Shown here: one piece after another, positions 1 through 15,252 of the stretch
Position numbering within the stretch: the stretch's first letter is position 1
Layout: every line of letters begins with the position of its first letter
Source: Candidatus Bathyarchaeia archaeon
GTDB lineage: Archaea > Thermoproteota > Bathyarchaeia > Bathyarchaeales > Bathycorpusculaceae
Direction of reading: 5' to 3'
Assembly: GCA_049970895.1 (NCBI GenBank)
Contig: JBMFMB010000024.1
Coordinates: 1-16,840 of the forward strand
DNA: 16,840 nucleotides
Notes under the pieces: model-generated
Databases searched by the model: none
The model's input: only the letters and a program-made list of their open reading frames with translations
What the model was told of the DNA's origin: nothing
Position numbers and translations under genes: made by a program

Positions 1-177
1 CTTCTTGATTTTCACGGCGAGGGAGAGGGGGTCAGGTATAAACTCCAGCACAAGCTTCCCACCTTCAACCCTCATCAGAACCTTGTCCTCCTCGCTTATG
101 CCTAACCGTTCACATATACGCTTAGGTATGTAAACAGCTCCCTTTTTACCAACCTTAGATATAAAAACCTGGCTCAA
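1..177 (-). CDS. AbrB/MazE/SpoVT-family DNA-binding antitoxin (3' end runs off the window)
   Basis: Hand translation from TTG at 177 (alternative TTG at 183): MSQVFISKVGKKGAVYIPKRICERLGISEEDKVLMRVEGGKLVLEFIPDPLSLAVKIKK. Matches the swapped-hairpin pattern KVGxKGxxxIPKxIxExLGIxxxDxVxxxVEGGKLVL. Confidence 0.88.
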   Translation of the reverse strand, partial: MSQVFISKVGKKGAVYIPKRICERLGISEEDKVLMRVEGGKLVLEFIPDPLSLAVKIKK

Positions 178-185
178 ACGCAACC

Positions 186-208
186 CCAGAATAAAAATAA
201 AATTCTGG
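186..208. promoter_or_regulatory. Palindromic operator upstream of the AbrB antitoxin
   Basis: CCAGAAT-N9-ATTCTGG between the start codon and an AT-rich TATA-like tract (~211-220); extra TTCTGG half-site at 221-226. Confidence 0.5.
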
Positions 209-240
209 AAAATATAAATATTCTGGTATTCCCTTCGCGA

Positions 241-333
241 ACCGGTAGACCCGAAATAGATGCTTGGGATATCGCATTCACACCCGAGGGACCTAAACCG
301 CGAAAAGTACCCATAGAATTCGAGATAATTTAG
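241..333 (+). pseudogene. C-terminal fragment, probably of a retropepsin-like (clan AA) protease
   Basis: TGRPEIDAWDIAFTPEGPKPRKVPIEFEII*. No start codon; begins directly after CGCG (236-239). Resembles the xIGxxxxxxWxIxx tail of archaeal retropepsin-like proteins. Confidence 0.45.
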
Positions 334-434
334 CATCGTCACCCTGCGCGCGAGTTAGAAAGCAGAGTGGTCAAAGCCAGAAGCCAAATAAAACCATTTC
401 TTGTCCGAATTTAGTAACAGCCTAGTACGCTAGA

Positions 435-475
435 AAGGTTTAATATATTCCCGCTTAAACCTTCTGATTGAAATG
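435..475 (+). promoter_or_regulatory. Orphan BRE/TATA promoter with inverted repeat, followed by an ATG cut by a GCGCGC junction
   Basis: GAAAGGTTTAATATA; arms AAGGTTTAA (435-443) and TTAAACCTT (455-463); ATG at 473 runs into GCGCGC 475-480. Confidence 0.4.
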
Positions 476-596
476 CGCGCATAAGTGGTCATTAAATAGT
501 TTTAGGCTCTTTTTCTCAAAATAGGGCTGTTTTTGGCTTAGTTAAGTTTATAGGGGTGAGGGTGTCAAGGGATAGTTAAATCAACCTGCGCGCGCG
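476..596. mobile_element. Short CGCG-bounded segment carrying a degenerate copy of the 3670/4134 element end
   Basis: Left end CGCGCATAAGTG matches the 3670 terminus over 12 bp, then AAATAGTTTTAGGCTCTTTTT vs AAATGGTTTTAAGTCTGTTTTT. Right end CCTG-CGCGCGCG. Confidence 0.5.
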
Positions 597-781
597 AAGA
601 AATAGGGAAAAAGTATGGAAAAACCCCAGCACAAGTAGCACTCAACTGGTTAATTTCAAAGGAGAACGTCGTAGCCATACCAAAAGCAATCAACTTGGCT
701 CATGTAAAAGAGAACGCCGAAGCAATGGGATGGAGATTATCGAAGGACGATCTAGAGCTTATATCCTCACTCTTCAGCTGA
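596..781 (+). pseudogene. Aldo/keto reductase C-terminal fragment
   Basis: EEIGKKYGKTPAQVALNWLISKENVVAIPKAINLAHVKENAEAMGWRLSKDDLELISSLFS*. Has the AKR motifs TPAQVALxW, IPK and ENxxA. The 5' part is missing and the break is exactly at the GCGCGCGCG run 588-596. Confidence 0.9.
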
Positions 782-904
782 TAATTCAATAAGAGAAATC
801 GGCACCCTCAATTTTTTCAAATATGTCTTTCTCGCGCAATACTATAAGAGTCATCTCACATGAGGGGATCTTTGTAGCATAATATGGTTTTTCATGGCAA
901 CTTA

Positions 905-1258
905 TTAGTAGAGTAGGAGCGTCCACTCTCTGAGTTTTCCTGTGAGCGGATCCACTTGTAATCCTAAAACCTCCAGGGTTGTTACGCCGATAAGCACCTT
1001 ATCTATTACATCTGAAATAAGCGCTGGCACGACCTCGCTTCTTCCCTCTAACTCTATCCACACCCTCGAGCGCTCAAGCTCTAATCTCCCAGCACCAGTC
1101 TCAACGGTAGATTTCCCAGTTAACCTAAGATTAAGGTCAAGAGCCATCTTGCGCGGTATAATCGTAAGCGTGGCTCCAGTATCAACTAGAGCATCAACCT
1201 CAACGAACCTCGTAAGATTTTCATCGCCTATCTTGACCTTAACCCAAACATGACCCAA
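905..1258 (-). CDS. Clan AA (retropepsin-like) aspartic protease
   Basis: ALVDTGAT catalytic motif; C-terminal LIGVTTLEVLGLQVDPLTGKL; 117 aa. Confidence 0.9.
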   Translation of the reverse strand: MGHVWVKVKIGDENLTRFVEVDALVDTGATLTIIPRKMALDLNLRLTGKSTVETGAGRLELERSRVWIELEGRSEVVPALISDVIDKVLIGVTTLEVLGLQVDPLTGKLREWTLLLY

Positions 1259-1322
1259 GAATTACTCTCCGCAATAAATTTAATGAAAGTTAAAATTTAA
1301 ATCTATTTAGGAACATTAGAGG

Positions 1323-1639
1323 TTAAATCTGCTTTTTCCGTCTTTCCGCTTCTGCTTTAACTAAGTCTACAACCGCCTCAAGTATTGGCTTAAGATCACT
1401 ACGTAAACCGTGAAACTCTTCGTTAATTCTTGCTATTGAACTCTCGATACCAGAAAGTGCTTTTGCATTGTCAGCTAAAAGTTTCATGTTATGTGTGTTT
1501 ATCAGTAACATGAGATCTTGAACCCTCAGCTTTTTACCCCTAACTTTTCCACAGCATCCTTCAACAACGGATACGTTGAAATAATAATCTCAACGATGGA
1601 TTTAGGATCCCTTTTCCCCACTTCCCGCTCATTTAGCAT
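1323..1639 (-). pseudogene. Frameshifted small coiled-coil hypothetical protein
   Basis: ATG 1639 (SD-like GGGTGA): MLNEREVGKRDPKSIVEIIISTYPLLKDAVEKLG. Frame changes near 1535-1540 to GKKLRVQDLMLLINTHNMKLLADNAKALSGIESSIARINEEFHGLRSDLK... (ORF 1323..1511). Confidence 0.55.
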
Positions 1640-1695
1640 TCACCCTACCCAATTAAAACGATAAAATCTCATTTTATTATCCTTTTCCGCAAGTT

Positions 1696-1712
1696 TTATG
1701 AAACTTTCATAA
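1696..1712. promoter_or_regulatory. Perfect palindrome, putative operator
   Basis: TTATGAAA-C-TTTCATAA; its ACTTTCAT half-site also occurs in both arms of the 1278/1843 inverted repeat. Confidence 0.5.
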
Positions 1713-2030
1713 GCCGTAACTATCCGAAATAGCCAAGTCTGACTTTTCGCTGGTCCCCGGCAAAGCAAGTTACGACCGCCAACTAATAGGAGAAAACAGT
1801 GGTTAATGAGAAGAAATGATTTAAAGTTTAACTTTCATTAAATAAATTTAGATCTGCACGTTTAAATACCTCTCTAGCGACCGCAAGAATTACCATGAAT
1901 ATTTTTCAGCACGTATAATAATCATATGTTTACAGCGAAGCGATTAGAACACACTAAACAGCGGATGGTTTTTAACCAGCGGCTTTATCCCTAGGCTTTT
2001 TGCATGATATGCTATTATTGCATCGATCAT

Positions 2031-2141
2031 CGCGCAAACAGGGAAGATCTACTTGGCCTTTTCTATGGACCATAGATTATGAAGTTTGCTCCCTCTGTTT
2101 GTGCAAGGGCTAATGCTCCGCCCCTACAAGCTATCTTCGCG
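2031..2141 (-). pseudogene. Possible PIN-domain (DUF3368-like) internal fragment bounded by CGCG on both sides
   Basis: Minus strand reads GALALAQTEGANFII, resembling the GEAEAIALAxExxAxxLIxDD motif; short and degraded. Confidence 0.3.
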
Positions 2142-2459
2142 TCCTTTTCTAGACCTTTGGTTTTGCCCATTTTCCCACAACGCCCATTGGCGCAGTTTCA
2201 GTTGGAAAAACCAAACTTCTCTTTAGCTGAGTGTACGCCGTAACCGCAAAACATATGCCTTGAACATCTAGAACCGGCATGAAGATTAGAGGTTTCCCTA
2301 TTCCAGCCATTAAAGACTTGGCGATTAATCCATCTTTTTCCGAGGACTTTTCGAGAATTTGAATCATTCGTCCGGATACGGGTTTCTGAGGTTGAAGGCT
2401 TGTTCTACGGAACCTTTTGCGGAAGAGAAAGGCTTGTCACCAATTGAGGAAATGCTCGG

Positions 2460-2611
2460 ATGGCTCGATGTAAAATTTGCGGTCATGGACTGTCGGTGTT
2501 TACAAGCACAGCTTTTACTGCCCAAAGCTTGACACAAAAACGCATATAACGCTTGAAGAGGAGCTTGAAAACACATGCCACTGCGATTACTGCGCGTTAG
2601 GGTGTTGCTAA
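2460..2611 (+). pseudogene. Possible small Cys-rich (Zn-finger-like) gene with a frameshift
   Basis: MARCKICGHGLSV, then -1 shift near 2500, then YKHSFYCPKLDTKTHITLEEELENTCHCDYCALGCC*. Confidence 0.3.
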
Positions 2612-2830
2612 TTCTTTCATTTGACGCGTGCATGTGCACTTGGCCTTAGCCACCCCTTTATGAATCAGGAAATTTACACAAAAACATTAATTTAGCAACA
2701 AGCTATCACGCGTCAACCCCATAATACTTGCAACAGCAAAAACCTAAACGCAAAAATAATCACAGGAGACGAGCACTCCGACAATCTCGCTTTTCCCTTT
2801 CAAATCCAAAAGAAACCAAAATGTTCACCT

Positions 2831-3382
2831 CTAATATTGCTGTGCCATTATGTCTTCTAGAATTTGAAGTGTGCCCTCTTTTTCTGCTTTACGCCTAACC
2901 GCCTCCAAATCAACCCTTGTAAATTTCAGTATGGCTTTCACGTCGTCCACATCCTTCTGTGCTCTTTCTCGGGGCACTGTTGCCTTAATCATTCGCAGTT
3001 TTGCCAAAACCAAATCCTCTGGCATCTGGAAAAAAGCCCTCAAACCAGCCATTTTACCCCTTTTCCTATCAAATTTTTTGTCAGAAATTATTACGTCAAC
3101 ATTGTATGGTGTTTCCCTATCCCTAAAACTGGCTATCCCATAGCCGGACTCTAAAGCGCGGTCAATTTCTGCTTCATCAACATCTAATCCAGCCTTACGC
3201 AAAGCATCAACAAGCTTTGCTTTACATGCATCATCAGAAACATAAACTATAACGTCAACATCCACCGTTGTCCGCGGAACACCATAAAAGCTGACTGCCA
3301 AAGCACCAGTAAAAGCATAATTCAATTCAGCCTTCTCAAAACCCATTATAAGACGCTTAACGAAATCATAAAAAGCTTCCAA
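2831..3382 (-). CDS. Nucleotidyltransferase toxin, MenT1/AbiEii-like
   Basis: Motifs YAFTGALAVSFYGVPRTTVDVDV, PEDLVLAKL and RAQKDVDDV. Likely start is TTG 3382, 1 nt after the stop of the upstream small gene (ORF track extends it to 3442). Confidence 0.85.
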   Translation of the reverse strand: MEAFYDFVKRLIMGFEKAELNYAFTGALAVSFYGVPRTTVDVDVIVYVSDDACKAKLVDALRKAGLDVDEAEIDRALESGYGIASFRDRETPYNVDVIISDKKFDRKRGKMAGLRAFFQMPEDLVLAKLRMIKATVPRERAQKDVDDVKAILKFTRVDLEAVRRKAEKEGTLQILEDIMAQQY

Positions 3383-3383
3383 A

Positions 3384-3584
3384 TTAAACGCCTTTTCTGC
3401 CCCAGCGTTTGCTCCATTCAAGCCTTTCCCGCAATTTTTCAATAAGCTCTCTTTCGGTTATGTTTGGATTCTGCGCCTTAATGCCGTTAGCACAAACCCT
3501 CACAACAAAATCCGACAGGCCAATGGCTAACATAACCTTCTCCTCCGGCTTAAGCCTTCCAAGCCTATCCGCATCCTTACCCAA
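3384..3584 (-). CDS. Small helical antitoxin, MenA1 (Rv0078B)-like
   Basis: 66 aa, PEEKVMLAIGLSDFVVRVCANGIKAQNPNITERELIEKLRERL; closely coupled upstream of the NTase; BRE/TATA-like AGAAGGTTAAAG at ~3616-3627. Confidence 0.65.
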   Translation of the reverse strand: MGKDADRLGRLKPEEKVMLAIGLSDFVVRVCANGIKAQNPNITERELIEKLRERLEWSKRWGRKGV

Positions 3585-3669
3585 GCCCTACACACTCGCG
3601 CCATTGTCCTTGAAGCTTTAACCTTCTAATTAGACTTTTCGCCGCGAACGGTTGCCTACCAAGCTCCGA

Positions 3670-4134
3670 CGCGCATAAGTGTTGAAAAATTGTTAAAAAT
3701 GGTTTTAAGTCTGTTTTTAATTATTTACAGTTGTTATGGCCTCTTTTGATGAGCGCGTCTTAAGAGTTCTGAGCGATGGTAGAAAGAGGATTTTTCCGAG
3801 CTTTCAAGCGTTGTGGATTTCTCCACAACACCCTGCGACTGGTCTCGAAGCCTTGTGGACAGAGGTCTAATTTTAAAGGAGAAAATGCCCAGGAAAGGTC
3901 ATGGAAGACAATGTTCACATACGCCATATCCCATTTCTAAAGCGCCAAATAATCCGCATACTGTCAGAACCATACACAGAATTTGTTCACCTTCTTAGTA
4001 AACTGAAACGTCTCTGCAGGTTTGAGAAGGGCGGATACTACAAGAAAAGGGCGTATGCGAAGCCAAAAATGCCCAGAAATCCAAAAAGGAGAATAAAAAC
4101 CATTAAAAACCAAATAATTCAACACTTATGCGCG
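3670..4134. mobile_element. Non-autonomous inverted-repeat-bounded element (CGCG-CATAAGTGTTGAA ... TTCAACACTTATG-CGCG)
   Basis: Perfect 17-bp inverted repeat 3670-3686 / 4118-4134 with imperfect extension to AATGGTTTT; CGCG on both flanks; a single passenger gene and no transposase. Confidence 0.75.
3736..4096 (+). pseudogene. Winged-helix (ArsR-like) protein with C-terminal Cys cluster, multiply frameshifted
   Basis: Reconstructed across frames: MASFDERVLRVLSDGRKRIF..VDFS.NTLRL..LVDRGLILKEKMPRKGHGR..FTYAI..LKRQIIRILSEPYTEFV..SKLKRLCRFEKGGYYKKR..C..KCPEIQKGE*. Contains an HTH recognition helix and a GR.xxY wing. Confidence 0.7.
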
Positions 4135-4283
4135 CTTTAGCTAAATGTAGCCTATCCTGCAAGTTTCTACTGTGCTCACGTCACCCTCTTGGAACAGTTA
4201 GGTTTTCAGTTATAAGGCGCTCAGCTGGCACTGTTATGGCATATTCACGGGTTGCAAAGCCTAGAAAGGGGGGTAGGTTTAGG

Positions 4284-4510
4284 ATGCCTGATAAGAAACG
4301 CATCGTGAAGATAGTTGAAACGTTATCAGGATTAAGAACTTCTGCGAGATCAAAACCTAGGGGCTCGTGTAAGGCTGATAGGTGAGCTGGAAAGGCTTTT
4401 CCCCTACGCCAAGGAGACGGCTTGAACGGTTGAGAACCGCGAGTTTTGGGTGAGAGCGAGGAGCAAAAGAAACTAGGCGTCAATAGCGCCTGAGCTGAAG
4501 TTTAACATGT
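4284..4510 (+). pseudogene. Degraded copy A of an unknown helical protein (paralog of 5239-5409)
   Basis: MPDKKRIVKIVETLSGLRTS, then frameshifts. DNA 4348-4450 aligns with 5304-5408 (e.g. TAAGGCTGATAGGTGAGCTGGAAAGGCTTTTCCCCTACGCC vs TAAGGCTGATTGATGAGCTTGAAAGGCTTTTCCTCTACGCC). Confidence 0.6.
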
Positions 4511-4596
4511 CCTATTTGAAGGGTGAGGGCGGTTTAACCCTTCGGCGGGAAGCCTTATAAAAGGCGGAGAGCTGCTTCATTAGGGATGGGAGAGTT

Positions 4597-4971
4597 ATGG
4601 CCAGCCTTGAAAGGGTTAAACTCATCGAGCGCCTGCTCAGCGAAGCCGACGGTTTTCTGGAGAGGGGCGACGCCGTCCAGTCTTCTGAGAAGCTCTATAA
4701 GGCAGCTGAGGAGTGCATAAAAACCCTTGCAGAGCGCTTAAACCTGAAAGAGGTTAAGGAAGCAGAAGAGAAAGGTCGATGGACGGTGACGCTTCTCGAA
4801 AAAGCCGTTGGAAAACTCACAGAAAAATTGGGGATGGACGTGGAAATCGGATGGGACGCGGCAAACTACCTCCACATATGGGGGTTCCATGAAACAAAAC
4901 TCGACGTGGAAGACGTTAAGAGAAGACTCCCTATAATAGTAAGACTTAAGGAGCTAACACAGAAAACCTAG
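4597..4971 (+). CDS. PaREP1-family (HEPN-like) protein
   Basis: GDAVQSSEKLYKAAEECIK and WDAANYLHIWGFHE motifs; TATA CTTATAA at ~4554-4560 and GGGAGAG before the ATG. Confidence 0.92.
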   Translation: MASLERVKLIERLLSEADGFLERGDAVQSSEKLYKAAEECIKTLAERLNLKEVKEAEEKGRWTVTLLEKAVGKLTEKLGMDVEIGWDAANYLHIWGFHETKLDVEDVKRRLPIIVRLKELTQKT

Positions 4972-5238
4972 GCAAAACAAACCAAAAGGCGGACACATCT
5001 CGTTTCGCCACCAAACCCACAACAATTCAACATCAGAATATGCTTTTTATTAAATGTTCGCGTGAAATGCTTTAAATTCTAATGCTGAAAAATTACGCGC
5101 GCATATCAGCGGGTCACGGCATATTCGTAAGCCAGAAAGCGTAAAGGGGGCCTAGAGGGGGGTGCGGAATGGCTGATTTTATGACCAAAATTTTGACCAA
5201 AAACCATCAAAATTTTAGCTAAAACGGGAGGCGATAAA

Positions 5239-5409
5239 ATGGTTAGGAAAAACCGCATTGTAATGATTCAGGAAAGCCTCATTAAAATGAGGAGTTTCTG
5301 CAAGATCAAAACTCAGGAGCTTCGCATAAGGCTGATTGATGAGCTTGAAAGGCTTTTCCTCTACGCCCAAGAAAAGGCTCGAACGGCTGAAAACCGTGAG
5401 GTTTGGTGA
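5239..5409 (+). pseudogene. Copy B of the unknown helical protein, probably prematurely terminated
   Basis: SD GGGAGG, then MVRKNRIVMIQESLIKMRSFCKIKTQELRIRLIDELERLFLYAQEKARTAENREVW*. Similarity to copy A resumes near 5515-5527 (GCTGAGTTAACAT vs GCTGAAGTTTAACAT). Confidence 0.6.
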
Positions 5410-5581
5410 AAATCTGCGGCGTTTTATTGTTGTTTGTTGGCTGTTAATTTTGGGTTTCCATCCTAAAGCTTTGGTCCTTAAAGTCCCGTTGTGTTTTGAC
5501 ATCGATCTGACGAAGCTGAGTTAACATAGCCCGAACTGGTGGGGCAACAGAGAGAGAATGTCACACGCTTGAGCAATGGTG

Positions 5582-6060
5582 TCAAACAGAAAGTGCTTTC
5601 AAATGGTTTTCGCTTATATATATCTCAAGCTTTCTCGTTTTGACGCCGATACCACTTAAGATGTCAATAATCTCGCTGCATGAACTTTTTGGAACCAAGA
5701 TGCAGCCTTCACTAAGTTTAATGCCTCCTGCCTTGGTAACAGCGCCTTCACCTCCCTTCTTGTAAAGGAGGTAGAAAGCCTTCATTTTATCCTTATAGTC
5801 TAAACCAGACATATTATAGAGGATCAAACAAAATGGTTTCAGGTTTATGGGCTTGAGAAAGACTTCGAGGGGCAATCTGGCAAAAAGTACTTTTCCATTC
5901 TTGAACAACTCGTCTAAGAAAACCGGATTAGCCGTCTTAAGCTCTTCAAGAGTTTCAGGAATCACGTGCAAGTTCATTCCAAGATTACCTACGGCTTGAA
6001 AAAGCCCATCCCAACTCCGCCACATTGAAGCCGCCAGGTTGTATGTCTTGACTTCCTATT
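5582..6060 (-). pseudogene. 5'-truncated nucleotidyltransferase-domain protein with C-terminal ferredoxin-like domain
   Basis: Retains the NTase tail (LEELKTANPVFLDELFKNGKVLF) and a C-domain (LILYNMSGLDYKDKMKAFYLLY...GGIKLSEGCILVP). The N-terminal GSxARG/DxD motif is absent and upstream sequence stops at CGCG 6061. Confidence 0.65.
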
Positions 6061-6226
6061 CGCGCACGACTTGATAGTAAAAGTCACAAACCTCACGAAG
6101 GCACATAAATAATAGCGTAAAGCTGGACATTCACTGCATTCCTGGACTTTGTAGCTTCAATGGGAAGTATGTTCAATTTTGGTGAAAACGTATCAAATCG
6201 CAGGGGGAGAGTTAACATGCGCGGCG

Positions 6227-6568
6227 TTAGACGTACTTTTTGCAATTGTAGCAATACCATCTTTGATATTGCTGAATATAACTTAGCGGCCCCTTACATG
6301 TTGGGCATATTGGCTGGGTAGGCTGTGTTGGCGCAGCCACTTCTGCGGCTGGTTTTAGAACCACAAAATCTCCTGCTCCTTGGATGTTCTCCCAAGGGAT
6401 GTCGCGAATTTCACCATCCTTGTCTTCCACACTCAGCGAAATGCCTATCTTTCCAAGGGTGAAGCTTACATCCTTAACTGTTCCAACGAGGTTTCCATCA
6501 GCGTCAATAACCTTCATACCTACGAGTTTTTCTTTGGTTATGGTCTTTTCTTTCTGCGGCTTGGACAT
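6227..6568 (-). CDS. PRC-barrel protein with C-terminal Zn-ribbon
   Basis: KLVGMKVIDADGNLVGTVKDV...IPWENIQGAGDFVVLK; Pro/Gln linker; CPTC...WYCYNCKKY. Confidence 0.88.
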   Translation of the reverse strand: MSKPQKEKTITKEKLVGMKVIDADGNLVGTVKDVSFTLGKIGISLSVEDKDGEIRDIPWENIQGAGDFVVLKPAAEVAAPTQPTQPICPTCKGPLSYIQQYQRWYCYNCKKYV

Positions 6569-6683
6569 AAAACTCGCCTTTTAAAAATATTTGCATTAAG
6601 GACCCTAATAAGCTTTGACCATGATGTAGTAAAGCTAATAAAGCCAATAGAAACAATAGCTGAAGCAAAGTGGAGCAGTTAAT

Positions 6684-7400
6684 ATGTCGGCAAAATCTGT
6701 AGAAGCAATATCGAAAGGCGTAGACATTTCAACGAAAAACCCCGTTTTATTCGTTCCAACCCTTGCACCCTTAACAATTCAGCTAATCTTCCTAATACTG
6801 GCTTACGTTGTTTTCCCTGTTAGGTACGGCGTATACCCCATGTTCTATGTTGAAGCTCCAAACCCGGTGCTCATATGGGGAGGCTACTTTATTGCGGCCA
6901 TAGTCGGGTTCATTGCCAGCTGCATGATTGTTGACATGGCCAACGACGTCATCAATGGGCATCCAATAGACCTGAAGAAGAGCATGAACCTCATTATGAG
7001 CAGATTGGGAACCCTAATTCTTGTAGCTATAATCTCAGCAATCTGTTTCATCACATTCATCCTGATTCCAGTAGCTCTTTTCATTATTACTATTGCCATA
7101 ATAGAGGGAACAGACGCTATTGAAAGCACAAAAAGGGCTTTTGACTTCATCATCAAAAACTTGGAAGAAGTAATCGTCTTCATAATCATAGTAATTGTAG
7201 TTTCCATAATCCTCGGCTTCGTTTTCGCATTAATACCAATTGTCGGCGCTTACATAGGAGCAATAGCAAGCTGGGTTGTAAATGTTATTTTCACAGTGGC
7301 ATCCGTACACTTTTATCTTACTCTAAGACAAGCATTACCACCGCCTCCACCCCAGCCTCCACCTCCTCCTCCGCCTCCACCGCCTCCACCAGCTTTTTAA
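6684..7400 (+). CDS. Multi-pass membrane protein with C-terminal polyproline tail
   Basis: About 5-6 hydrophobic segments; ends LPPPPPQPPPPPPPPPPPPAF. Confidence 0.85.
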   Translation: MSAKSVEAISKGVDISTKNPVLFVPTLAPLTIQLIFLILAYVVFPVRYGVYPMFYVEAPNPVLIWGGYFIAAIVGFIASCMIVDMANDVINGHPIDLKKSMNLIMSRLGTLILVAIISAICFITFILIPVALFIITIAIIEGTDAIESTKRAFDFIIKNLEEVIVFIIIVIVVSIILGFVFALIPIVGAYIGAIASWVVNVIFTVASVHFYLTLRQALPPPPPQPPPPPPPPPPPPAF

Positions 7401-7447
7401 CAGGTGCATGAACCATCTGCGAACAACAGCCCGGTTCAGTGTTACAC

Positions 7448-7831
7448 TTAAACCCGCTTTCTCCTTCCCACATACTCTTCTAGTATTTCGTCAACGCTTT
7501 TTGGTTTCATTTTCCATTTCTCTATAATTGAGGATTTTTCAATCTGTTTTCTGTACCATGCCTTTTTCCTGTCATAGTGTATGACTAATATGAAGGCTAC
7601 TGATGAGATGCCGAACCCTACTATGGTTAAAATCAATCCAAGACTTGCTGTTGCTGTTTGAAGCTGCCAATAAATGGAGAAAGGCCACAACGTCTGCCCT
7701 CCGGAAACGATTATTGTCACCACTAGACCGGCGGTTGAAAGGTGAATGCCCAAAATTATCAATAGGAAAGCTAAGATCTCGTTGTGGGCGCTTTCCTCAG
7801 CCTTTCTGTGAAGCCAATCTTCCACTAACAT
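7448..7831 (-). CDS. Two-TM hypothetical membrane protein
   Basis: 127-aa ORF with two hydrophobic helices and a basic tail; paralog of the pseudogene at 12475-12894. Confidence 0.8.
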   Translation of the reverse strand: MLVEDWLHRKAEESAHNEILAFLLIILGIHLSTAGLVVTIIVSGGQTLWPFSIYWQLQTATASLGLILTIVGFGISSVAFILVIHYDRKKAWYRKQIEKSSIIEKWKMKPKSVDEILEEYVGRRKRV

Positions 7832-8014
7832 TCTAAGTCACGCGTTCAAAGTCTATGCATTAAAGGGTTAAATGGACAAGTAAACCTTCCGAATTTGGAA
7901 TATAGATTATCAGGATTGTTCTATAATTTGCCTACCTTTATATGGAAGCGTCTTCGAGAAAGCGTGCTGCAATTGGAAAATTTCTTTATCCATGTTTTGG
8001 TCGAAGTCTGTCGT

Positions 8015-8175
8015 TTGGTGCTATCTCTTCAGCTTTGTTTTTAACGTCAAGTCGTTGCAAATAAGCTGCTGCGCCTATGGCTATGTATAGTGGCAATAGA
8101 ATCTTGCCATATGCGATTTGTTGGCGGCTAGTGCTGGAGAGCCATTATTGTAGCGGATGCTTGGGGCTTTCCATG
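8015..8175 (-). pseudogene. Possible highly degraded VapC/PIN remnant
   Basis: Across frameshifts DS..LYIAIGAAA.ICNDLTLKNKAEEIAP, similar to the PIN C-terminal DxLYIAxA...TxDxxL; boundaries approximate. Confidence 0.3.
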
Positions 8176-8255
8176 CTGTTTGTCGGTCCACTTTTACTCT
8201 AATTGTTTTTGATACGAAGTAAACTAATGTGTAAAGGTTACTGGAAGAGGTGTTT

Positions 8256-8459
8256 CTACTTGCAAATGGTTTTTCTAAGACCTACATCCAAGAAGACGAC
8301 GGTCGGTTGGTTTAATTGGTTATGTATTTGCCTACTCTCCAGCGCCAGCGTCCTTCAAGTTCGCCTTGCAATTTAACACTCTGGTAACGGATTCTGCCAA
8401 GCTTTGGCACCTATAGATTCAAGTAAGCGAAATTATGGGTCTGTTCCAGCTAAAACGTT
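8256..8459 (-). pseudogene. RelE/ParE-family toxin remnant, 5'-truncated
   Basis: Across frameshifts: RLLESI..SLAE..YQSVKLQGELEGRWRWRVGKY...TVVFLDVGLRKTICK*. Upstream sequence ends at CGCG 8460-8463. Confidence 0.75.
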
Positions 8460-8585
8460 CGCGCCAACCTCAAGGATTTGAGGCTCCCAGTGTTATCCTC
8501 AAAGTGATGCATGGCACGTCTAAAACGCAGTTTTCCCCTCGGGACTTCTCGGAATCAGAAGCGTAAGTCTGACTCCGCTTTCCGC

Positions 8586-8951
8586 TCATGTTTCGATAAG
8601 CATTGAGAGTTGCGCTTCCTTCAGTGTGTTTTTATTGGGTCTACTTCAAGTCCAAGGGCTTCGAGGGCTGTCACTCCAAGTATTTGCAATATCATCTTTT
8701 TCTCCGAAGATTAGAGTTATGCCTCCTCTCCTGCCCATGAGCTCTACCTCAGCGATGCCTATTTCCCTTTCCACATCTCCGCCCAACGCTCTGAACCTCC
8801 TCTTCTCAACAGGCTTTAAACCTATGGATTCAAGTAGGCTCCTGCTTACCACCGTTTAGATTGCCCCAGTATCTACAACACCCTCAACATCTATGTGCCT
8901 TTCCCTATCCATTGGGTTTACAATTCTAAACTTAGCCTTAATGAAGCCCAT
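8586..8951 (-). pseudogene. Clan AA aspartic protease pseudogene
   Basis: MGFIKAKFRIVNPMDRERHIDVEGVVDTGAI*TVVSRSLLESIGL..., in-frame TAA after DTGAI, frameshift before ILGVTALEALGLEVDPIK and another near the end. Confidence 0.88.
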
Positions 8952-9178
8952 TGTCTGCTCGTTTAATAAACCCGTTTTCTCATACTTAAAAATATTCAAA
9001 ATTTTACGTTTCTTCCCTTTCATCTTACGGCTTCGATGTCCCTTGCTTTTTGTTTTTGTGGCGCGGATGCTTGACTGAATTTAATAAATTTTGGTGGTGG
9101 ATGATGTATGTGGAAGAGCGTTTAGCTTAACATTTTGAGAAGTTTCTCATGATTTATTAAATTGTCAATTAAGTTGTT

Positions 9179-9362
9179 TTAACAGGAAATTTTTAAGTCT
9201 TCGTCCATCGTGAGAGTTGCACGTTGTTCACAGCTGATGTGGCGTAGAAAAGTTACCAATAATGTCTCTATGCCCAGCATCGTCAGTTTAAAGGCCAGCT
9301 TAATGTCTTTAATGTTGGCGTTAGCCACTCGTAGAAGCCTAATTTCACAAGGGATTTGACGG
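9179..9362 (-). pseudogene. VapC/PIN toxin C-terminal remnant
   Basis: Across frameshifts: VKSLVKLGFYE.ANANIKDIKLAFKL.MLGHRDIIGN..YATSAVNNVQ.LTMDEDLK, matching the archaeal PIN pattern GHxDxxDNxxYA...LTxD. Confidence 0.55.
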
Positions 9363-9391
9363 GCTGATGGCTGGAGGCAGGCGGCAACTTC

Positions 9392-9595
9392 AGCGGAAAA
9401 CAACTCCTACACGACCGATGGCACCGGACAAGGTGAATAGCTGAAGAGCAGAGCAGACTAGCAAAAGTTAACAAGGCTAAAAATCCAGAAGCTTAAAAGG
9501 CTGTGCAGTTAAGGCAGAAGCGAAACATAATCCGCCAAGGTGGTGGAAACCCACCGCTGAAGCGTATGGGAGAACGTCAAAAAGACACGGTACCC
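9392..9595 (+). mobile_element. tnpB: Degraded IS200/IS605 TnpB remnant
   Basis: SGKQLLHDRWHRTR*IAEEQSRLAKVNKAK..LKRL..RQKR..IIRQ...AEAYG resembles the TnpB helical region and AEExG motif, with large internal deletions; boundaries approximate. Confidence 0.5.
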
Positions 9596-9886
9596 TCGCC
9601 ATAGCAAAGCTATTACCAACCTAATATAATATAGAATGGAAAAACAAACATAATACGCAACAAAATTCCTAAAAGAAATCAACAATTAACCTCAACTTTT
9701 GACGTAAAATGGAAGTTTTCTAACGCTTTTCACCGTTCAGGCGCCGAAAGAAGGTTGAATCGGCTTCTATTGAAGCTAAATAAAACTGTAACTTTGCTTA
9801 ATTGTTGCAGCACTTCTTAAAAATTGGCCTATTCCAGCCCATTCTTTTCAACGTAGACGCTATGATTCGCTGCAAACCAACGCCAA

Positions 9887-10258
9887 TCAGTATAAACTGA
9901 GCAGGAGGTATCCGCCTTCAGGCGATATTTCCTCCAAGCTGCCGGTTTTTGGGTTCACTTTAAACCCCAACGTTTCTAAAGCATAGACGCCTAGAATAGG
10001 CCTTGGTGTTTCAAGCTCAGCTATGAATGCAGGTCCCCTCCTGCCCTCCACTTCAACTTCCGCTAGGAAAAGGTTTGCCTCAACTTCCCTTTTATCGGCC
10101 AGCGTCAACTTCACCTTATAGGGGGTTTCAAGCAACCCCAGCTCCTTGATGGTTCCCGGGTCTAAAACAATGTATGTGGAACCCGTATCTACAAGCATCC
10201 TAAGCGACGCGGTTTTTCCCATACCTATGACTTTAACGCTTACATATGTAAAGCCCAT
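9887..10258 (-). CDS. Clan AA (retropepsin-like) aspartic protease
   Basis: MLVDTGST motif, ILGVYALETLGFKVNPKTGSL; SD GGTGAGGTG and TATA TTATATTATAT upstream. Confidence 0.92.
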   Translation of the reverse strand: MGFTYVSVKVIGMGKTASLRMLVDTGSTYIVLDPGTIKELGLLETPYKVKLTLADKREVEANLFLAEVEVEGRRGPAFIAELETPRPILGVYALETLGFKVNPKTGSLEEISPEGGYLLLSLY

Positions 10259-10429
10259 TACACCTCACCATAACATTCGTGGCATTATATAATATAATTT
10301 ATCTTTTATCTTTTGGAAACAAAACAGATAAGAGGAATAAGAAACCAACATGAACGCGGGAAAGTTTTCTTTCGCCATAGAAATAGAAAAAGAGGGGGGT
10401 TTTGCGAGAAATCTCCATCTGCTGTTGTT

Positions 10430-10457
10430 CCGGGTTCAAATCCCGGCGGCCGCACCA
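10430..10457 (+). other. Isolated 3' fragment of a tRNA (probably tRNA-Gly); att-site scar
   Basis: CCGGGTTCAAATCCCGGCGGCCGCACCA is a T-arm, 3' acceptor strand and A-CCA. The complementary 5' GCGGCCG, D-arm and anticodon are absent upstream. GCGGCCG/CGGCCGC-A acceptor stems are typical of archaeal tRNA-Gly. Confidence 0.82.
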
Positions 10458-10505
10458 TAGGCTTTTAACTTTAAACGTACATATTTTGCTTAAGGGGTTA
10501 TGTAT

Positions 10506-10697
10506 ATGCCTATAGTTCATGTGTATGTTTGGGAGGGTTTCGGGAAAGACCGCATTAAAACACTGATGAGGGAGATAACGAGGGTGTTTGGAGGCTTGGG
10601 GGTTCCAGAAAGCGCTGTTGAGGTAATCGTGCACGAAGTCCCAAAAACGCATTGGGGTATTGGTGGAGAGCCGGCCTCTGAGAAGTTTAGGGAATAA
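10506..10697 (+). CDS. 4-oxalocrotonate tautomerase family protein
   Basis: Second ATG gives catalytic Pro1: MPIVHVYVWEG...VEVIVHEVPKTHWGIGGEPAS. Confidence 0.92.
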   Translation: MPIVHVYVWEGFGKDRIKTLMREITRVFGGLGVPESAVEVIVHEVPKTHWGIGGEPASEKFRE

Positions 10698-10700
10698 GCC

Positions 10701-11310
10701 TTAACGGGCGATGGCTGCAAGGGCTGTTATGGTGAATGGTGCTGCCACTGTCAGTATGACGTCGCTCGTGAAGGCTGTTATGAGAGTTTCTTGGCCGCAG
10801 TTGCGTACTATTATGGGCAGTGTTGTGTCCATTGCTGTTGCGCCTCCCATGGCTATTGGCGCATATTTGTCCAACTTTGCGAGTAGCGACGCGCCGACTA
10901 TTGTTGCAAGTTCTCTGAGAAGGTTCACTGTGAAGACGAGGGCGCCCCACTCCAGCCCGAAAAGCTGTCCAGCCAATGGTCCAGCTAGCGTGTACCATCC
11001 ATAGCCAGCACAAACTCCCATAGAGGCGAATACATTAATTCTGAGATATTCCGCCAACAAGCCCTCCTGTTATGCTGCCTAAAGCCACAGCAAATGGGAA
11101 AACAATTATTCTAAACTTGGCTTCCCTAATTTTTGCCACGGCTTTTTCATCCGCCATGAAAAACATGTCCATCAAAAACAGCAGCGCAATTAACGAGAAG
11201 TTGAAAGTGTATTGTGAAAAAACGGTGTTTAAAAGCGGAGTCCCAAAATTATTGTTTAAGTAGCCAGCCAGAATTCCAACGGCAAGTGCGAGTAGAACAT
11301 ATTTTATCAT
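10701..11310 (-). pseudogene. LysO/DUF340 lysine-exporter family protein, frameshifted
   Basis: ORFs 11035..11310 and 10701..11060 join by a frameshift near 11045; motifs GYGWYTLAG, NLLREL, GGATAMDTTLP. Confidence 0.85.
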
Positions 11311-11597
11311 ACTTTCACCAATTTTCGAGCTGCCTTCACGAAGAGTATGCTGAAAAGCAAAGCCATAACCAAGAGCATTAGGGCATTAAACCCGACACTT
11401 GGCATTATTCCCAAAAGTTCAGAATTTAAGCCTATCGAAAAGCCCAGAGAGAAAATTAGTATTAGAATAATGCCAAGTACAAGCTTTCCAAAATTAGGAA
11501 GCTTCTTGCCCCTCAGATAATAGCCAATCACCATCCCCGCAACCAACGGAGGGACAAGCAAAGCAACATCCATAAGACCAGCCATGTCAACCGCCAC
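11307..11597 (-). CDS. Small LysO-family (DUF340 N-terminal-like) 3-TM protein
   Basis: ILILIFSLGFSIG motif; 4-nt overlap with the downstream LysO gene. Confidence 0.78.
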   Translation of the reverse strand: MAVDMAGLMDVALLVPPLVAGMVIGYYLRGKKLPNFGKLVLGIILILIFSLGFSIGLNSELLGIMPSVGFNALMLLVMALLFSILFVKAARKLVKV

Positions 11598-11660
11598 CGG
11601 ACAATAAGCGAACCTAACGGACAGGATTTAAAATCTTTTCTAAAAAAGGAGCCACCGAAG

Positions 11661-12443: not shown

Positions 12444-12474
12444 TACTTATTTCCACATAATAAGGTTTAGGTAT

Positions 12475-12894
12475 ATGTCCAATAATGAGAATATTCAAGG
12501 CAGCATATCTCATAGAGACTACTTACACGAGAAGGTTGAGGAGTCAAAGCACAACGAAACAGTAGCCTATCTAATGTCTCCTGCTGGAACAGTATTCTTT
12601 GTAGGAGGAATCCTTGAAAACCTACTCATAAGCAACAATTATCAATGCAAGCCTAGACTGGTTCCTATTCATTCCATCCTACGCTATCTGTTTTGGGCTT
12701 AGCCCTACTAATCTGCGGTTTAACTTTAACTGTTTTGGAATAATGGCTGGAATAGCTATTCAAGGGACAGAAGCTGATACATGAATAGGCTTCGAAAGGA
12801 AAACTCCTTAGAGGAAGTTTTACTGTCCAAGAAGAAGGTTACAAGCGAATCGGGCGAAAAGAAAGCGAAAAGAACTAAGAAAACAGCCAATTAG
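12475..12894 (+). pseudogene. Degraded paralog of the 7448-7831 membrane protein
   Basis: DYLHEKVEESKHNETVAYLM vs DWLHRKAEESAHNEILAFLL; later VLGLALLICGLTL and YSRDRS*YMNRLRK vs SLGLILTIVGFGI and YDRKKAWYRKQIEK; several frameshifts and a TGA. Confidence 0.75.
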
Positions 12895-13624: not shown

Positions 13625-13625
13625 G

Positions 13626-14024: not shown

Positions 14025-14143
14025 AAGAAAGCCTTCAACAAAGCCAGATTTAAAAATATTGTAGAATAAGCCTTTAAACAGCTCTAACTGAAACGAAAAA
14101 TTTTTAAGTGCTTGATTTTTCCCAACAAAATTTGGTGATAGCC

Positions 14144-14200: not shown

Positions 14201-14333
14201 AAGCCTCCTCTAAAACTTGAAAAAACGCTTGGCCTTCACCAACTAACGTTTAAATTTTCACGTTCTCACTTTCTTTTTCTCTTAGGTGTTAAAAGGGAAG
14301 TGTTAAATTGCCGCATTTTGATTTGTCTTCCCA

Positions 14334-15224: not shown

Positions 15225-15252
15225 GACTTCCCTTTAACGTAAAGGGAAGCCT

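What the first reader, a model, noticed from the sequence alone, without database searches (positions are those of the whole stretch)
236..9065. Island pieced together at CGCG/(CG)n junctions: candidate novel cassette insertion or shuffling system
Seen: by-eye count gives about 30 CGCG loci in 1-10430, mostly non-coding, versus 4 (all inside genes) in 10460-16840. Extended runs occur only in the island (347-352, 475-480, 588-596, 4130-4135, 5096-5102). Unrelated genes lose their 5' ends at or next to such sites: protease-like tail (236), AKR (596, exact), NTase (6061), RelE (8460); a promoter plus ATG is cut at 475. Several segments read CGCG-CA...TG-CGCG (476-592, 2031-2596, 3670-4134, 6061-6223), and 8460-9065 reads CGCGCCA...TGGCGCG. 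Inference: a transposase or recombinase that targets or duplicates CG/CGCG repeatedly inserts and deletes cargo, with (CG)n runs as footprints. Alternatively the island was built by joining blunt CG^CG restriction fragments (ThaI/BstUI specificity). Caveats: no catalytic gene is in the window, some sites (3597, 7841) sit between a promoter and its gene and may be incidental, and the VapC/TnpB junction (~9365-9390) has no CGCG.
Basis: partly seen in the sequence, partly recalled or inferred. Interest (0 to 1): 0.82.

Follow-up and report, generated by a model that had tools for sequence, protein, structure and literature searches.

The report
Transposon scars in decayed tRNA island
The CGCG-rich stretch is the worn-out remnant of a mobile island lodged at a tRNA gene, peppered with ends of ordinary jumping genes that are almost always bordered by CGCG, so it shows a curious insertion habit and no new cassette system.

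Summary
The CGCG excess is real. The island holds 35 CGCG, the highest of 993 genome windows of the same size. CGCGCA is ten times denser there than elsewhere.

The island is also real. Relatives G005 and G013 have an uninterrupted tRNA-Gly(GCC) at this spot. In this genome the intact tRNA lies on contig C14 beside a truncated archaeal integrase, and a 28-nt copy of the tRNA 3' end closes the island at 10430-10457.

It is an IS5/IS1182-like DDE transposase (DUF772 + DDE_Tnp_1). At least three families with unrelated terminal repeats, plus their miniature derivatives, abut CGCG. In public genomes 48 of 57 ends of one family are CGCG-flanked, including both ends of all 4 complete copies.

In the window these ends account for the junctions at 475, 588-596, 2592-2712, 3670 and 4134, and for three gene truncations. 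Other claimed junctions (2031, 8460, 236) are not junctions, and "RelE" is an epimerase fragment.

Three points are open:
- Only 6 of 31 CGCG loci sit at recognisable element ends.
- I could not tell whether CGCG is a target duplication or the element tip.
- (CG)4 runs beside truncated genes are only partly explained.

Verdict: known kind, new variant.

The parts
1..177 (-). AbrB/MazE-type antitoxin gene, running off the contig start
   Evidence: Pfam MazE_antitoxin E 6.9e-9. 98% identical to G011:C34:1556-1917, where a weak PIN-domain gene follows it.
346..352 (.). (CG)3 run, also present in G011. Not a breakpoint between the two genomes.
   Evidence: The W/G011 deletion junction is at 361/362, 10 nt away.
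362..424 (.). Right-hand remnant of a MITE-C copy (my label) with terminal repeat TAGGCTGTTACTAAATTC on the minus strand. Its flank has decayed to GTACGC.
   Evidence: G011:C34:2391-2582 holds the full 192-bp copy at the same place.
437..474 (+). Orphan promoter-like box plus ATG. The gene body has been replaced by the IS end.
   Evidence: G011 continues from the same ATG into an open frame.
476..587 (+). CGCG plus the left end of insertion sequence IS-A (my label), truncated after its leader. The match is 113 nt at 475-587, and the terminal repeat CATAAGTGGTCATTAA starts at 480.
   Evidence: 99% identical to C16:358-470, which runs on into a DUF772 transposase N-terminus.
588..596 (.). (CG)4 run joining the truncated IS-A to the aldo-keto reductase fragment
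   Evidence: Intact IS-A copies read CAACCT-CGGAAGG at this point.
593..781 (+). 3' fragment of an aldo-keto reductase gene (last ~60 codons)
   Evidence: Pfam Aldo_ket_red profile 229-288 of 291, E 2.6e-10.
905..1258 (-). Retropepsin-like aspartyl protease gene, one of three paralogs
   Evidence: Pfam Asp_protease_2 E 1.1e-9.
1947..2483 (-). mtrH-like pseudogene: residues 133-309 of 309, frameshifted, N-terminal part missing. The CGCG at 2031 lies inside it.
   Evidence: tblastn with the G027 and G028 homologs. The G027 protein is Pfam MtrH, E 8.9e-88.
2593..2712 (.). Small MITE of the C family (2598-2705) with CGCG on both sides (2593-2596 and 2709-2712)
   Evidence: Inverted repeat I9. Terminal repeat matches the IS ends on C42, C65 and C71.
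2713..2790 (+). 3' fragment of a PIN-domain (vapC) gene, cut at the MITE flank
   Evidence: 85% identical to the 3' end of G009 and C12 genes. The G009 protein is Pfam PIN, E 2.2e-18.
2831..3584 (-). Nucleotidyltransferase (DUF6036/AbiEii-like) with a small upstream ORF, probably a toxin-antitoxin pair
   Evidence: Both Pfam hits are just below their cut-offs.
3670..4134 (.). MITE-A (my label): a 465-bp non-autonomous element with IS-A-type terminal repeats, CGCG at both ends and a decayed winged-helix gene inside
   Evidence: 22-nt arms, 91%. Further copy ends at C46 and G011:C7. An intact 124-aa HTH_5 homolog with different terminal repeats but the same CGCG flank is in G032. Present in an independent contig, L114.
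4597..4971 (+). PaREP1-family gene. The cassette is duplicated at C19 (87%).
   Evidence: Pfam PaREP1 E 2.8e-34..
5096..5102 (.). (CG)3 run followed by CATATCAG, with no recognisable element end. Unexplained.
5585..6046 (-). Nucleotidyltransferase gene that has lost its first 79 codons, including part of the Polbeta domain
   Evidence: 95% identical to residues 80-233 of the 233-aa G011 protein. Pfam Polbeta covers residues 44-136 of that protein.
6042..6103 (.). 62-nt repeat shared with C48 (95%). The CGCG at 6061 is internal to it.
8385..8577 (-). The CGCG at 8460 lies inside it.
   Evidence: tblastn residues 279-347 of 365. Pfam Epimerase_2 E 3e-114 for the G017 homolog.
8646..9023 (-). Retropepsin-like pseudogene with an in-frame stop
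   Evidence: ORF list. Read by eye against the other two paralogs. Pfam found nothing in either half.
9179..9362 (-). Likely 3' part of a PIN-like (vapC) gene. There is no CGCG at its break.
   Evidence: 80% identical to G011:C34:1030-1274, inside an ORF with a weak PIN hit (20.5 bits, below cut-off). Pfam silent on the window piece.
9887..10258 (-). Retropepsin-like aspartyl protease gene
   Evidence: Pfam Asp_protease_2 E 7.7e-8.
10379..10429 (+). Element-side arm next to the attachment core, conserved beside tRNA 3' ends in many related genomes
   Evidence: Matches at 79-93% in genomes that include G011, G017, G031, G012, G002, G013 and G025.
10430..10457 (+). 28-nt copy of the 3' end of tRNA-Gly: right attachment site and island boundary
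   Evidence: 100% identical to C14:4283-4310 and C2:32989-33016. Empty sites in G005 and G013.

Best explanation
Window 1-10429 is the right-hand part of a decayed integrative island.

HOW THE ISLAND ARRIVED. An archaeal integrase placed the island into the 3' end of tRNA-Gly(GCC). The intact tRNA and a truncated integrase lie on contig C14. A 28-nt repeat of the tRNA end closes the island at 10430-10457.

WHAT HAPPENED AFTERWARDS. The immobilised island became a dumping ground for a group of insertion sequences and their miniature derivatives. These elements encode DUF772 + DDE_Tnp_1 transposases of the IS5/IS1182 kind. The same elements occur in genomes titled Bathyarchaeia. I label the three families IS-A, IS-B and IS-C/MITE-C. 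Their terminal repeats are unrelated, yet their ends are almost always bordered by CGCG, with consensus G-CGCG.

MOST LIKELY MECHANISM (INFERRED). The transposase inserts at a palindromic GCGCGC/CGCG target and duplicates CGCG. Each insertion then adds a CGCG. Nested insertion or excision makes (CG)3-4 runs. Deletions that start at element ends leave gene fragments butted against CGCG.

SHOWN:
- the island and its attachment sites;
- the transposase genes;
- the CGCG-bounded ends;
- the truncated genes at those ends.

INFERRED:
- that CGCG is a target duplication and not the element tip;
- the excision footprints;
- the order of events.

Part of the CGCG excess is not tied to any recognisable element. 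It may be older scars or the composition of the foreign genes.
For: ISLAND.
- G005 and G013 carry C14 backbone, tRNA-Gly(GCC) and C24 backbone contiguously.
- The ORF beside the C14 tRNA matches residues 4-103 of 387-421-aa neighbours of tRNAs in 5 same-genus genomes. The G013 one is Pfam 'Archaeal phage integrase', E 3e-29.

TRANSPOSASES.
- C16 carries IS-A with a DUF772 domain, E 5.6e-16.
- Full 338-aa copies in G190 and G041 have DDE_Tnp_1 (E 3.6e-22) plus DUF772.
- DDE_Tnp_1 C-terminal parts lie on C42, C65 and C71, each followed by the C-type terminal repeat.

CGCG BORDERS, FROM SCANS THAT DID NOT INCLUDE THE FLANK.
- In G000, 5 of 5 IS-A-type ends and 3 of 3 IS-B ends abut CGCG.
- Of the 15 C-type ends that I picked by eye as real from that scan's 32 hits, 8 abut CGCG directly and 3 more partially.
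- In public genomes, 39 of 41 ends in Bathyarchaeia-titled records are CGCG-flanked, against 0 of 42 chance hits in other records. That count covers the first 80 of 114 loci.
- Over all 114 loci, 48 of 57 ends with the IS-A subterminal signature are CGCG-flanked. G stands at position -5 in 48 of 57.
- All 4 complete copies read CGCG|IS|CGCG-C with no further direct repeat.
- Elements in other families (G032, G030) have different terminal repeats but the same flank.

IN THE WINDOW. Element ends sit at 475-480, 2593-2712, 3670 and 4134. Truncated genes sit against them: the ATG-only gene, the AKR fragment and the vapC fragment.

GENOME-WIDE.
- 22 of 57 (CG)>=3 runs lie within 1 kb of a contig end, which is 7.3% of the bases (p 2e-11).
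- 11 of 26 homology breakpoints lie within 20 nt of a CGCG, against 3.4 expected.
- CGCGCG occurs 69 times against 42.6 expected.

INDEPENDENT ASSEMBLY. Contig L114 is 99.7% identical over 2068-6437 and includes both MITEs.
Against: - Only 6 of 31 CGCG loci (8 of 35 occurrences) sit at recognisable element ends. That tally is mine. Without them the island still has 27, against a genome mean of 15.7.
- No filled-site/empty-site pair at high identity was found.
- Three diverged stand-ins for empty sites (74-81% identity) show no CGCG where the element sits. That fits 'CGCG belongs to the element' as well as, or better than, 'CGCG is duplicated target'.
- (CG)4 runs abut truncated sequences whose intact relatives have no CGCG at that point. 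Examples are the IS-A leader, the C12 integrase fragment, the C18 membrane-gene paralog and the C46 MITE-A. Simple insertion at a native CGCG therefore does not explain them.
- The left part of the island (C14:1-4282) is CGCG-poor: 3 sites, 0.70 per kb.
- The runs at 346-352, 833, 5096-5102 and 6219 have no identified element.
- Some breakpoints (361/362, about 9362, 8279) are nowhere near a CGCG in a meaningful way.
- The breakpoint test used ends of BLAST hits that I picked. They include the element ends themselves.
- Reads were not examined.
Confidence: 0.55

Rival explanations
1. Same transposons, but CGCG (GCGCG) is the outermost part of the element itself, a conserved tip. Insertion is not aimed at CGCG and makes no duplication, as reported for one IS1182-family member. 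(CG)4 runs would then be two abutting tips left after loss of an element's interior.
For: - Stand-in empty sites lack CGCG.
- (CG)4 abuts sequences with no native CGCG.
- No direct repeat lies outside CGCG in 4 of 4 complete copies.
- The IS1272 abstract (PMC5678879, abstract read) reports inverted-repeat targets and no target duplications in the IS1182 family. The N-terminal domain of IS-A resembles that family most, E 1.7e-32, below the curated cut-off.
Against: - Three or more families with wholly unrelated terminal repeats share only this border.
- The number of CG units beside an end varies from 2 to 4.
- Conservation fades outward: CGCG in 48 of 57 ends, G at -5 in 48 of 57, C at -6 in 24 of 57. 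That looks like a target preference and not like a cleavage tip.
- IS-A repeats start with CAT, as I recall for IS4-family subgroups.
- The stand-in empty sites are only 74-81% identical.
Confidence: 0.27
2. A novel site-specific recombinase or cassette system joins unrelated DNA segments at CGCG cores.
For: - Several unrelated fragments meet at (CG)3-4 runs with no element end beside them (588-596 right side, C12:26039, C18:25364).
- Island segments are shared with G011 in a different order, at higher identity (93-98%) than the backbone (84-88%).
Against: - No recombinase gene lies in the window. The PF00589 search of the genome hit 7 places, none on C24.
- Every CGCG junction that could be traced leads to a DDE-transposon end.
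- Claimed cassettes 2031-2596 and 8460-9065 cut through pseudogenes.
- No conserved site beyond CGCG is shared by the junctions.
Confidence: 0.04
3. The island was assembled from blunt CG^CG restriction fragments of foreign DNA that were ligated and integrated.
For: CGCG is a known blunt-cutting specificity (recalled, not tested). Junctions lie at CGCG.
Against: - CGCG is only mildly under-represented (Markov o/e 0.73, against GGCC 0.25 and GATC 0.43).
- No C5 methyltransferase was found. One N6/N4 methyltransferase of unknown specificity is present.
- Fragment joining would give single CGCG sites, not (CG)3-4, and would not place transposon terminal repeats beside them.
Confidence: 0.02
4. 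The excess is mainly compositional: foreign genes and non-coding DNA that never adapted to the host's mild CGCG avoidance. The few transposon ends are incidental.
For: - ORF-covered parts of the island also have more CGCG (2.43 against 1.52 per kb).
- 25 of 31 loci have no identified element.
Against: - The left part of the same island is CGCG-poor (0.70 per kb).
- The tenfold CGCGCA excess and the (CG)n runs are not compositional effects.
- (CG)>=3 runs track contig ends and IS ends genome-wide.
Confidence: 0.1

Closest known systems
IS5 / IS1182 / IS4 group of DDE insertion sequences (Pfam DDE_Tnp_1 with N-terminal DUF772)
   Same: - Single ~338-aa transposase with DUF772 + DDE_Tnp_1.
- About 1.2-kb element with 17-18-nt terminal inverted repeats.
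- A short palindromic border of 4 nt. An IS1182-family element with a 4-bp direct repeat is listed in a table of PMC3281130 (passage seen). IS5's 4-bp YTAR duplication is recalled.
   Different: - The protein scores below the curated cut-off of every NCBIfam IS family model (best IS1182, 113 bits against 270; IS5_4, 65.6 against 140).
- The border is CGCG/GCGCGC. I found this described in no paper in four full-text searches.
- Whether it is a duplication is not shown.
MITEs (miniature inverted-repeat elements derived from insertion sequences)
   Same: - 3670-4134 and 2598-2705 are short.
- They carry the terminal repeats of IS-A and of the C-type IS respectively.
- They lack a transposase and recur in G000 and G011.
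   Different: The 465-bp element carries a passenger: a small winged-helix gene, decayed here and intact in G032 (HTH_5, E 3.9e-6). It is therefore a non-autonomous transposon with cargo and not a plain MITE.
Archaeal integrative elements at tRNA genes (integrase family Pfam PF16795)
   Same: - Insertion at the 3' end of a tRNA gene with a direct repeat of the tRNA end.
- Integrase gene next to the intact tRNA.
- Empty site in relatives.
   Different: - The integrase is truncated after about 103 residues.
- The cargo is mostly toxin-antitoxin pieces and pseudogenes.
- The middle of the island is not assembled.
Target-specific cut-and-paste transposons that leave footprints (Tc1/mariner at TA, piggyBac at TTAA). 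Recalled, used as a working analogy only.
   Same: A short palindromic site on both sides of every copy. Runs such as (CG)4 equal two borders joined, as expected for an excision footprint.
   Different: A different transposase superfamily. Excision, footprints and target choice are not demonstrated here.

Membership tests
IS4/IS5/IS1182-type DDE insertion sequence | DDE_Tnp_1 catalytic domain | tested here: met
   PF01609 E 3.6e-22 in the 338-aa G190 protein. Three C-terminal fragments in G000.
IS4/IS5/IS1182-type DDE insertion sequence | N-terminal DUF772 domain | tested here: met
   PF05598 E 5.6e-16 for the C16 fragment and E 7.6e-12 for the G190 protein.
IS4/IS5/IS1182-type DDE insertion sequence | Assignment to one named IS family by NCBIfam equivalog cut-off | tested here: not met
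   All of the 11-12 IS-family hits per protein lie below their cut-offs (IS1182 113 of 270 bits, IS5_4 65.6 of 140, IS4_1 62.1 of 115).
IS4/IS5/IS1182-type DDE insertion sequence | Terminal inverted repeats | tested here: met
   G041 and G190 copies have 17-18-nt repeats. Four complete ~1.2-kb copies.
IS4/IS5/IS1182-type DDE insertion sequence | Target-site duplication | tested here: inconclusive
   CGCG lies on both sides of 4 of 4 complete copies, with nothing repeated outside it. No true empty site was found, and the stand-ins lack CGCG.
MITE | Short, terminal repeats of an autonomous IS, no transposase, several copies | tested here: met
   3670-4134, with copy ends at C46 and at G011 C7, C36, C19 and C3. 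2598-2705 compared with the C42, C65 and C71 ends.
tRNA-integrating archaeal element | Direct repeat of the tRNA 3' end at the far border | tested here: met
   28 nt, 100% identical.
tRNA-integrating archaeal element | Uninterrupted site in relatives | tested here: met
   G005 and G013.
tRNA-integrating archaeal element | Integrase next to the tRNA | tested here: met
   A remnant only: residues 4-103 at 55% identity to a PF16795 integrase.
Integron-like cassette array | Recombinase gene beside an array of cassettes with a shared recombination site | tested here: not met
   No PF00589 hit on C24. The junction contexts share nothing beyond CGCG or CGCGCA.
CGCG restriction-modification footprint | Strong avoidance of the site plus a cognate methyltransferase | tested here: not met
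   Markov o/e 0.73. No PF00145 hit. One PF01555 hit of unknown specificity.

The most novel reading that the evidence does not exclude
A clade of IS5/IS1182-like transposases in Bathyarchaeia is strictly specific for the palindrome GCGCGC/CGCG and moves by cut-and-paste. Each insertion duplicates CGCG, and each excision leaves a (CG)3-4 footprint. The footprint is both a better target and a fragile point. Insertions, excisions and one-sided deletions then pile up in a few 'sinks', where they truncate and re-join unrelated genes.
Probability: 0.3. Interest if true: 0.55.

Novelty: new variant of a known kind. Interest (0 to 1): 0.35.

Why it matters
- For genome annotation, it turns a puzzling CG-rich 'island' into three ordinary layers: a tRNA-integrated element, toxin-antitoxin debris, and IS/MITE scars.
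- It gives simple marks for finding such scars in Bathyarchaeia assemblies: CGCG next to CATAAGTG..., AATGGTATGAG... or CTAGGNNGTTGC....
- It explains many contig breaks.
- If the CGCG border proves to be a strict target duplication, it would add a G+C-palindrome specificity to a transposase group known mostly for A+T-rich targets.
- It would also offer a natural case of footprint-driven hotspot growth in archaea.
- Practical value is modest. The mechanism is still inferred.

Tried and rejected
EMPTY-SITE HUNTS THAT LED NOWHERE.
- The flanks of the G011:C3 IS copy, compared with G000:C10, diverge at the junction.
- The upstream half of the gene broken by IS-A on C16 is not in the assembly.
- The flanks of six G011 element copies gave no clean empty site in G000.
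- C23's MITE lies in another variable region.
- The G190 IS flanks, searched in 41 same-genus genomes, gave no adjoining match.
- Three recent-looking copies in one Bathyarchaeia MAG, searched against five related MAGs, sit in variable DNA.

OTHER SEARCHES WITHOUT A USEFUL RESULT.
- The metagenome scan with the NTase protein gave one near-identical contig (L114). It carries both MITEs, so it is no empty allele.
- An anchor-motif search for paralogous upstream regions was uninformative.
- A terminal-repeat search around three more distant transposase genes (L059, L061, L062) found no convincing repeats.
- Rfam and ARAGORN found only tRNA-Cys in the window.
- Literature: four full-text searches found no description of a CGCG-bordered IS. 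PMC13343696 was searched for terms only. Supplements were not opened.

REJECTED READINGS.
- 'RelE' at 8460.
- Cassettes at 2031-2596, 6061-6223 and 8460-9065.
- The protease tail at 236.

RUNS. X1 and X2 (labelled hot springs metagenome) hold 94-95% of the sampled words, and X3 holds 49%. None was laid, so nothing is claimed from them.

Full report
WHAT WAS CLAIMED AND WHAT THE SEQUENCE SHOWS.

The window is a whole 16,840-bp contig (C24) of a 1.34-Mb, 79-contig assembly with 45% G+C. It contains 39 overlapping CGCG. Thirty-five lie in 1-10430 (31 merged loci) and four lie beyond. Every alternating C/G run of six or more is in the left part.

This is not chance.
- The genome averages 1.52 CGCG per kb.
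- The island's 35 is the top value of 993 sliding windows of equal size (mean 15.7, sd 4.3).
- With a crude ORF mask, non-coding DNA elsewhere has 1.44 per kb, against 4.19 per kb in the island.
- The hexamer CGCGCA/TGCGCG occurs 13 times against 1.3 expected (p 1.5e-9).

THE ISLAND IS REAL AND HAS A CLASSICAL ORIGIN.

Positions 10430-10457 are an exact 28-nt copy of the 3' end of tRNA-Gly. In two same-genus genomes (G005, G013) one intact tRNA-Gly(GCC) sits directly between the sequence of contig C14 and the right part of this window.

In this genome the intact tRNA is at C14:4283-4360. Beside it is an ORF whose first ~100 residues match proteins of 387-421 residues that lie next to tRNAs in five relatives. 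The G013 protein is a Pfam 'Archaeal phage integrase' (E 3e-29). Here the gene is cut after about residue 103.

The island is therefore C14:4282-1, then an unassembled gap, then window 1-10429, which makes at least 14.7 kb. It was integrated by a tyrosine-type integrase and is now immobilised. The 50 nt left of the repeat (10379-10429) recur beside tRNA ends in many related genomes, as expected for the element's attachment arm.

The cargo is mostly small accessory genes and wreckage:
- an AbrB/MazE antitoxin;
- three retropepsin-like genes, one of them broken;
- a DUF6036/AbiEii-like nucleotidyltransferase pair;
- a PaREP1 gene;
- PRC-barrel and membrane proteins;
- fragments of AKR, vapC, mtrH, a Polbeta nucleotidyltransferase and a UDP-GlcNAc 2-epimerase.

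THE MISSING CATALYTIC GENE.

Window 475-587 is 99% identical to the start of contig C16. There it continues into the N-terminus of a DUF772 transposase.

Full copies in two related genera encode 338-aa DUF772 + DDE_Tnp_1 proteins, flanked by 17-18-nt terminal repeats that begin CATAAGTG or CATGTGTG. NCBIfam places the protein nearest IS1182, IS5 and IS4, but below every curated cut-off.

Two further families are present in the genome. The labels are mine.
- IS-B has ends reading AATGGTATGAGAAGGG. It is seen at C9, C31 and C75, and C75 holds a 36%-identical transposase piece.
- IS-C has ends reading CTAGGNNGTTGCTAAATT. DDE_Tnp_1 C-termini lie on C42, C65 and C71, and MITE derivatives lie at C23, C14, C4 and C32 and in G011.

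THE CGCG BORDER.

The three terminal repeats are unrelated in sequence, yet the base pairs just outside them are CGCG.

In scans that did not include the flank:
- 5 of 5 IS-A-type ends in G000 abut CGCG;
- 3 of 3 IS-B ends abut CGCG;
- of the 15 C-type ends that I picked by eye as real from the scan's 32 hits, 8 abut CGCG directly and 3 more are one or two changes away.

In the public species-representative genomes, the IS-A repeat occurs in 114 stretches.
- Among the first 80, 39 of 41 ends in records titled Bathyarchaeia or Bathyarchaeota are CGCG-flanked. None of 42 chance hits in other organisms is.
- Over all 114, 48 of 57 ends with an IS-A-like subterminal signature are CGCG-flanked. G stands at -5 in 48 of 57.
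- All four complete ~1.2-kb copies read ...CGCG|IS|CGCG-C..., with nothing else repeated.
- Related small elements in two other families (G032, G030) have yet other terminal repeats and the same border.

(CG)>=3 runs are over-represented: 69 CGCGCG against 42.6 expected. They cluster at assembly breaks: 22 of 57 lie within 1 kb of a contig end, which covers 7.3% of the bases (p 2e-11).

WHAT THIS EXPLAINS IN THE WINDOW.

1. At 475 a promoter and ATG that open a normal gene in G011 are followed instead by CGCG and the IS-A end.
2. IS-A is itself cut after 113 nt, at a (CG)4 run (588-596). That run leads straight into the last ~60 codons of an AKR gene.
3. A 108-bp C-type MITE (2598-2705) has CGCG on both sides. 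Its right side butts against the last ~25 codons of a vapC gene.
4. 3670-4134 is a 465-bp element with 22-nt IS-A-type repeats, CGCG at both ends and a decayed winged-helix gene. The intact 124-aa homolog in G032 is an HTH_5 protein.
5. 362-424 is the right third of a C-type MITE that is complete in G011. The left part and a neighbouring protease gene were lost in a 585-bp deletion whose junction (361/362) is not at a CGCG.

An independent metagenome contig (L114) is 99.7% identical over 2068-6437 and includes both MITEs. These structures are therefore not artefacts of one assembly.

WHAT IT DOES NOT EXPLAIN.

Only 6 of the 31 CGCG loci are at recognisable element ends. Several claims fail or stay open.
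- The CGCG at 2031 lies inside the mtrH pseudogene.
- The CGCG at 6061 lies inside a 62-nt repeat shared with C48, 15-20 nt beyond the true break of the nucleotidyltransferase gene.
- The (CG)3 at 346-352 is conserved in G011.
- The runs at 5096-5102 and the sites at 833 and 6219 have no identified partner.
- The left part of the island on C14 is CGCG-poor.
- ORF-covered DNA of the island is also somewhat CGCG-rich, so part of the excess may be compositional.

MECHANISM: WHAT IS SHOWN AND WHAT IS INFERRED.

It is shown that DDE transposons with CGCG-bordered ends have repeatedly hit this region, and that gene fragments abut their ends.

I infer, at roughly 55-60%, that the transposase inserts at a GCGCGC/CGCG palindrome and duplicates CGCG. 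The grounds are these.
- Unrelated terminal repeats share only the border.
- No other duplication exists in complete copies.
- The number of CG units varies from two to four.
- Conservation fades outward in the manner of a target preference.

Against this inference:
- Three diverged stand-ins for empty sites (74-81% identity) have no CGCG at the insertion point.
- (CG)4 runs abut truncated sequences whose intact relatives have no CGCG there. These are the IS-A leader, an integrase fragment at C12:26047, a membrane-gene paralog at C18:25364 and MITE-A on C46.

These cases need either excision footprints plus one-sided deletions, or CGCG carried as the element's tip. The second option is the rival I rate at about 27%. 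A member of the IS1182 family is reported to use inverted-repeat targets without duplication (PMC5678879, abstract). Another is listed with a 4-bp repeat (PMC3281130, table passage). Known relatives therefore allow both readings.

COMPARISON AND NOVELTY.

The island is a member of a known kind, a tRNA-integrating archaeal element. The transposons are members of the DDE_Tnp_1/DUF772 group and fit no curated IS family model. The small elements are MITE-like, and one carries a passenger gene.

What seems undescribed is the CGCG/GCGCGC border shared by several families in this lineage, together with the association of (CG)3-4 runs with truncations. Four full-text searches found no report of it. 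ISfinder itself could not be consulted.

This is a new variant of a known kind, not a new system. The restriction-fragment idea and a new recombinase are poorly supported.

LIMITS.
- The coding mask is crude.
- The breakpoint test used BLAST ends of my choosing.
- Family labels are mine.
- The lineage name comes from titles of other records that hold the same IS, not from the window's own record.

Noticed in passing
window 1273-1303 and 1818-1848: A 31-nt inverted repeat (90%) encloses about 576 bp with a small ORF (1323-1511, minus strand). There is no CGCG at its ends and no other copy in the genome. It may be another kind of small element.
   Followed up: no
window 16764-16840; G000:C2:79033-79462: The tRNA-Cys at the window's right end is 100% identical to the one on C2. 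There an integrase fragment (PF00589) lies 170 nt away. This suggests a second tRNA-linked element or a contig join.
   Followed up: partly
window 1854-2067 versus L114: An independent metagenome contig replaces this stretch (the end of the mtrH pseudogene, including the CGCG at 2031) with about 22-26 unrelated bases close to its own contig end. This is a strain or assembly variant.
   Followed up: partly
window 4183-8279 versus 10378-16815, compared with G011: Island segments shared with G011 are 93-98% identical, apart from one at 85% (4183-4453) and three more outside the stated stretch at 80-82%. The chromosomal backbone next door is only 84-88% identical. This suggests recent exchange of island pieces between lineages.
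   Followed up: no
window 905-1258, 8646-9023, 9887-10258; G011:C34:1981-2310: A small family of stand-alone retropepsin-like aspartyl protease genes recurs in these islands, near AbrB/PIN pairs. Their role is unknown.
   Followed up: no
G000:C12:26039-26046, C18:25364-25371, C46:344-351, C6:8622-8631, C45:237-251: Elsewhere in the genome (CG)4-7 runs stand exactly where genes or elements are truncated: an integrase C-terminal fragment, a paralog of window gene 6684-7400, and MITE-A. Intact relatives show no CGCG at those points.
   Followed up: partly
whole genome: GGCC (Markov o/e 0.25) and GATC (0.43) are strongly avoided, far more than CGCG (0.73). This hints at restriction systems with those specificities.
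   Followed up: no
window 3738-4100; L027 1551-1922 (G032): The passenger of the 465-bp element is a small winged-helix (HTH_5) protein with several cysteines near its C-terminus. It is intact in G032 and carried between terminal repeats with CGCG borders. It may regulate or assist transposition.
   Followed up: partly
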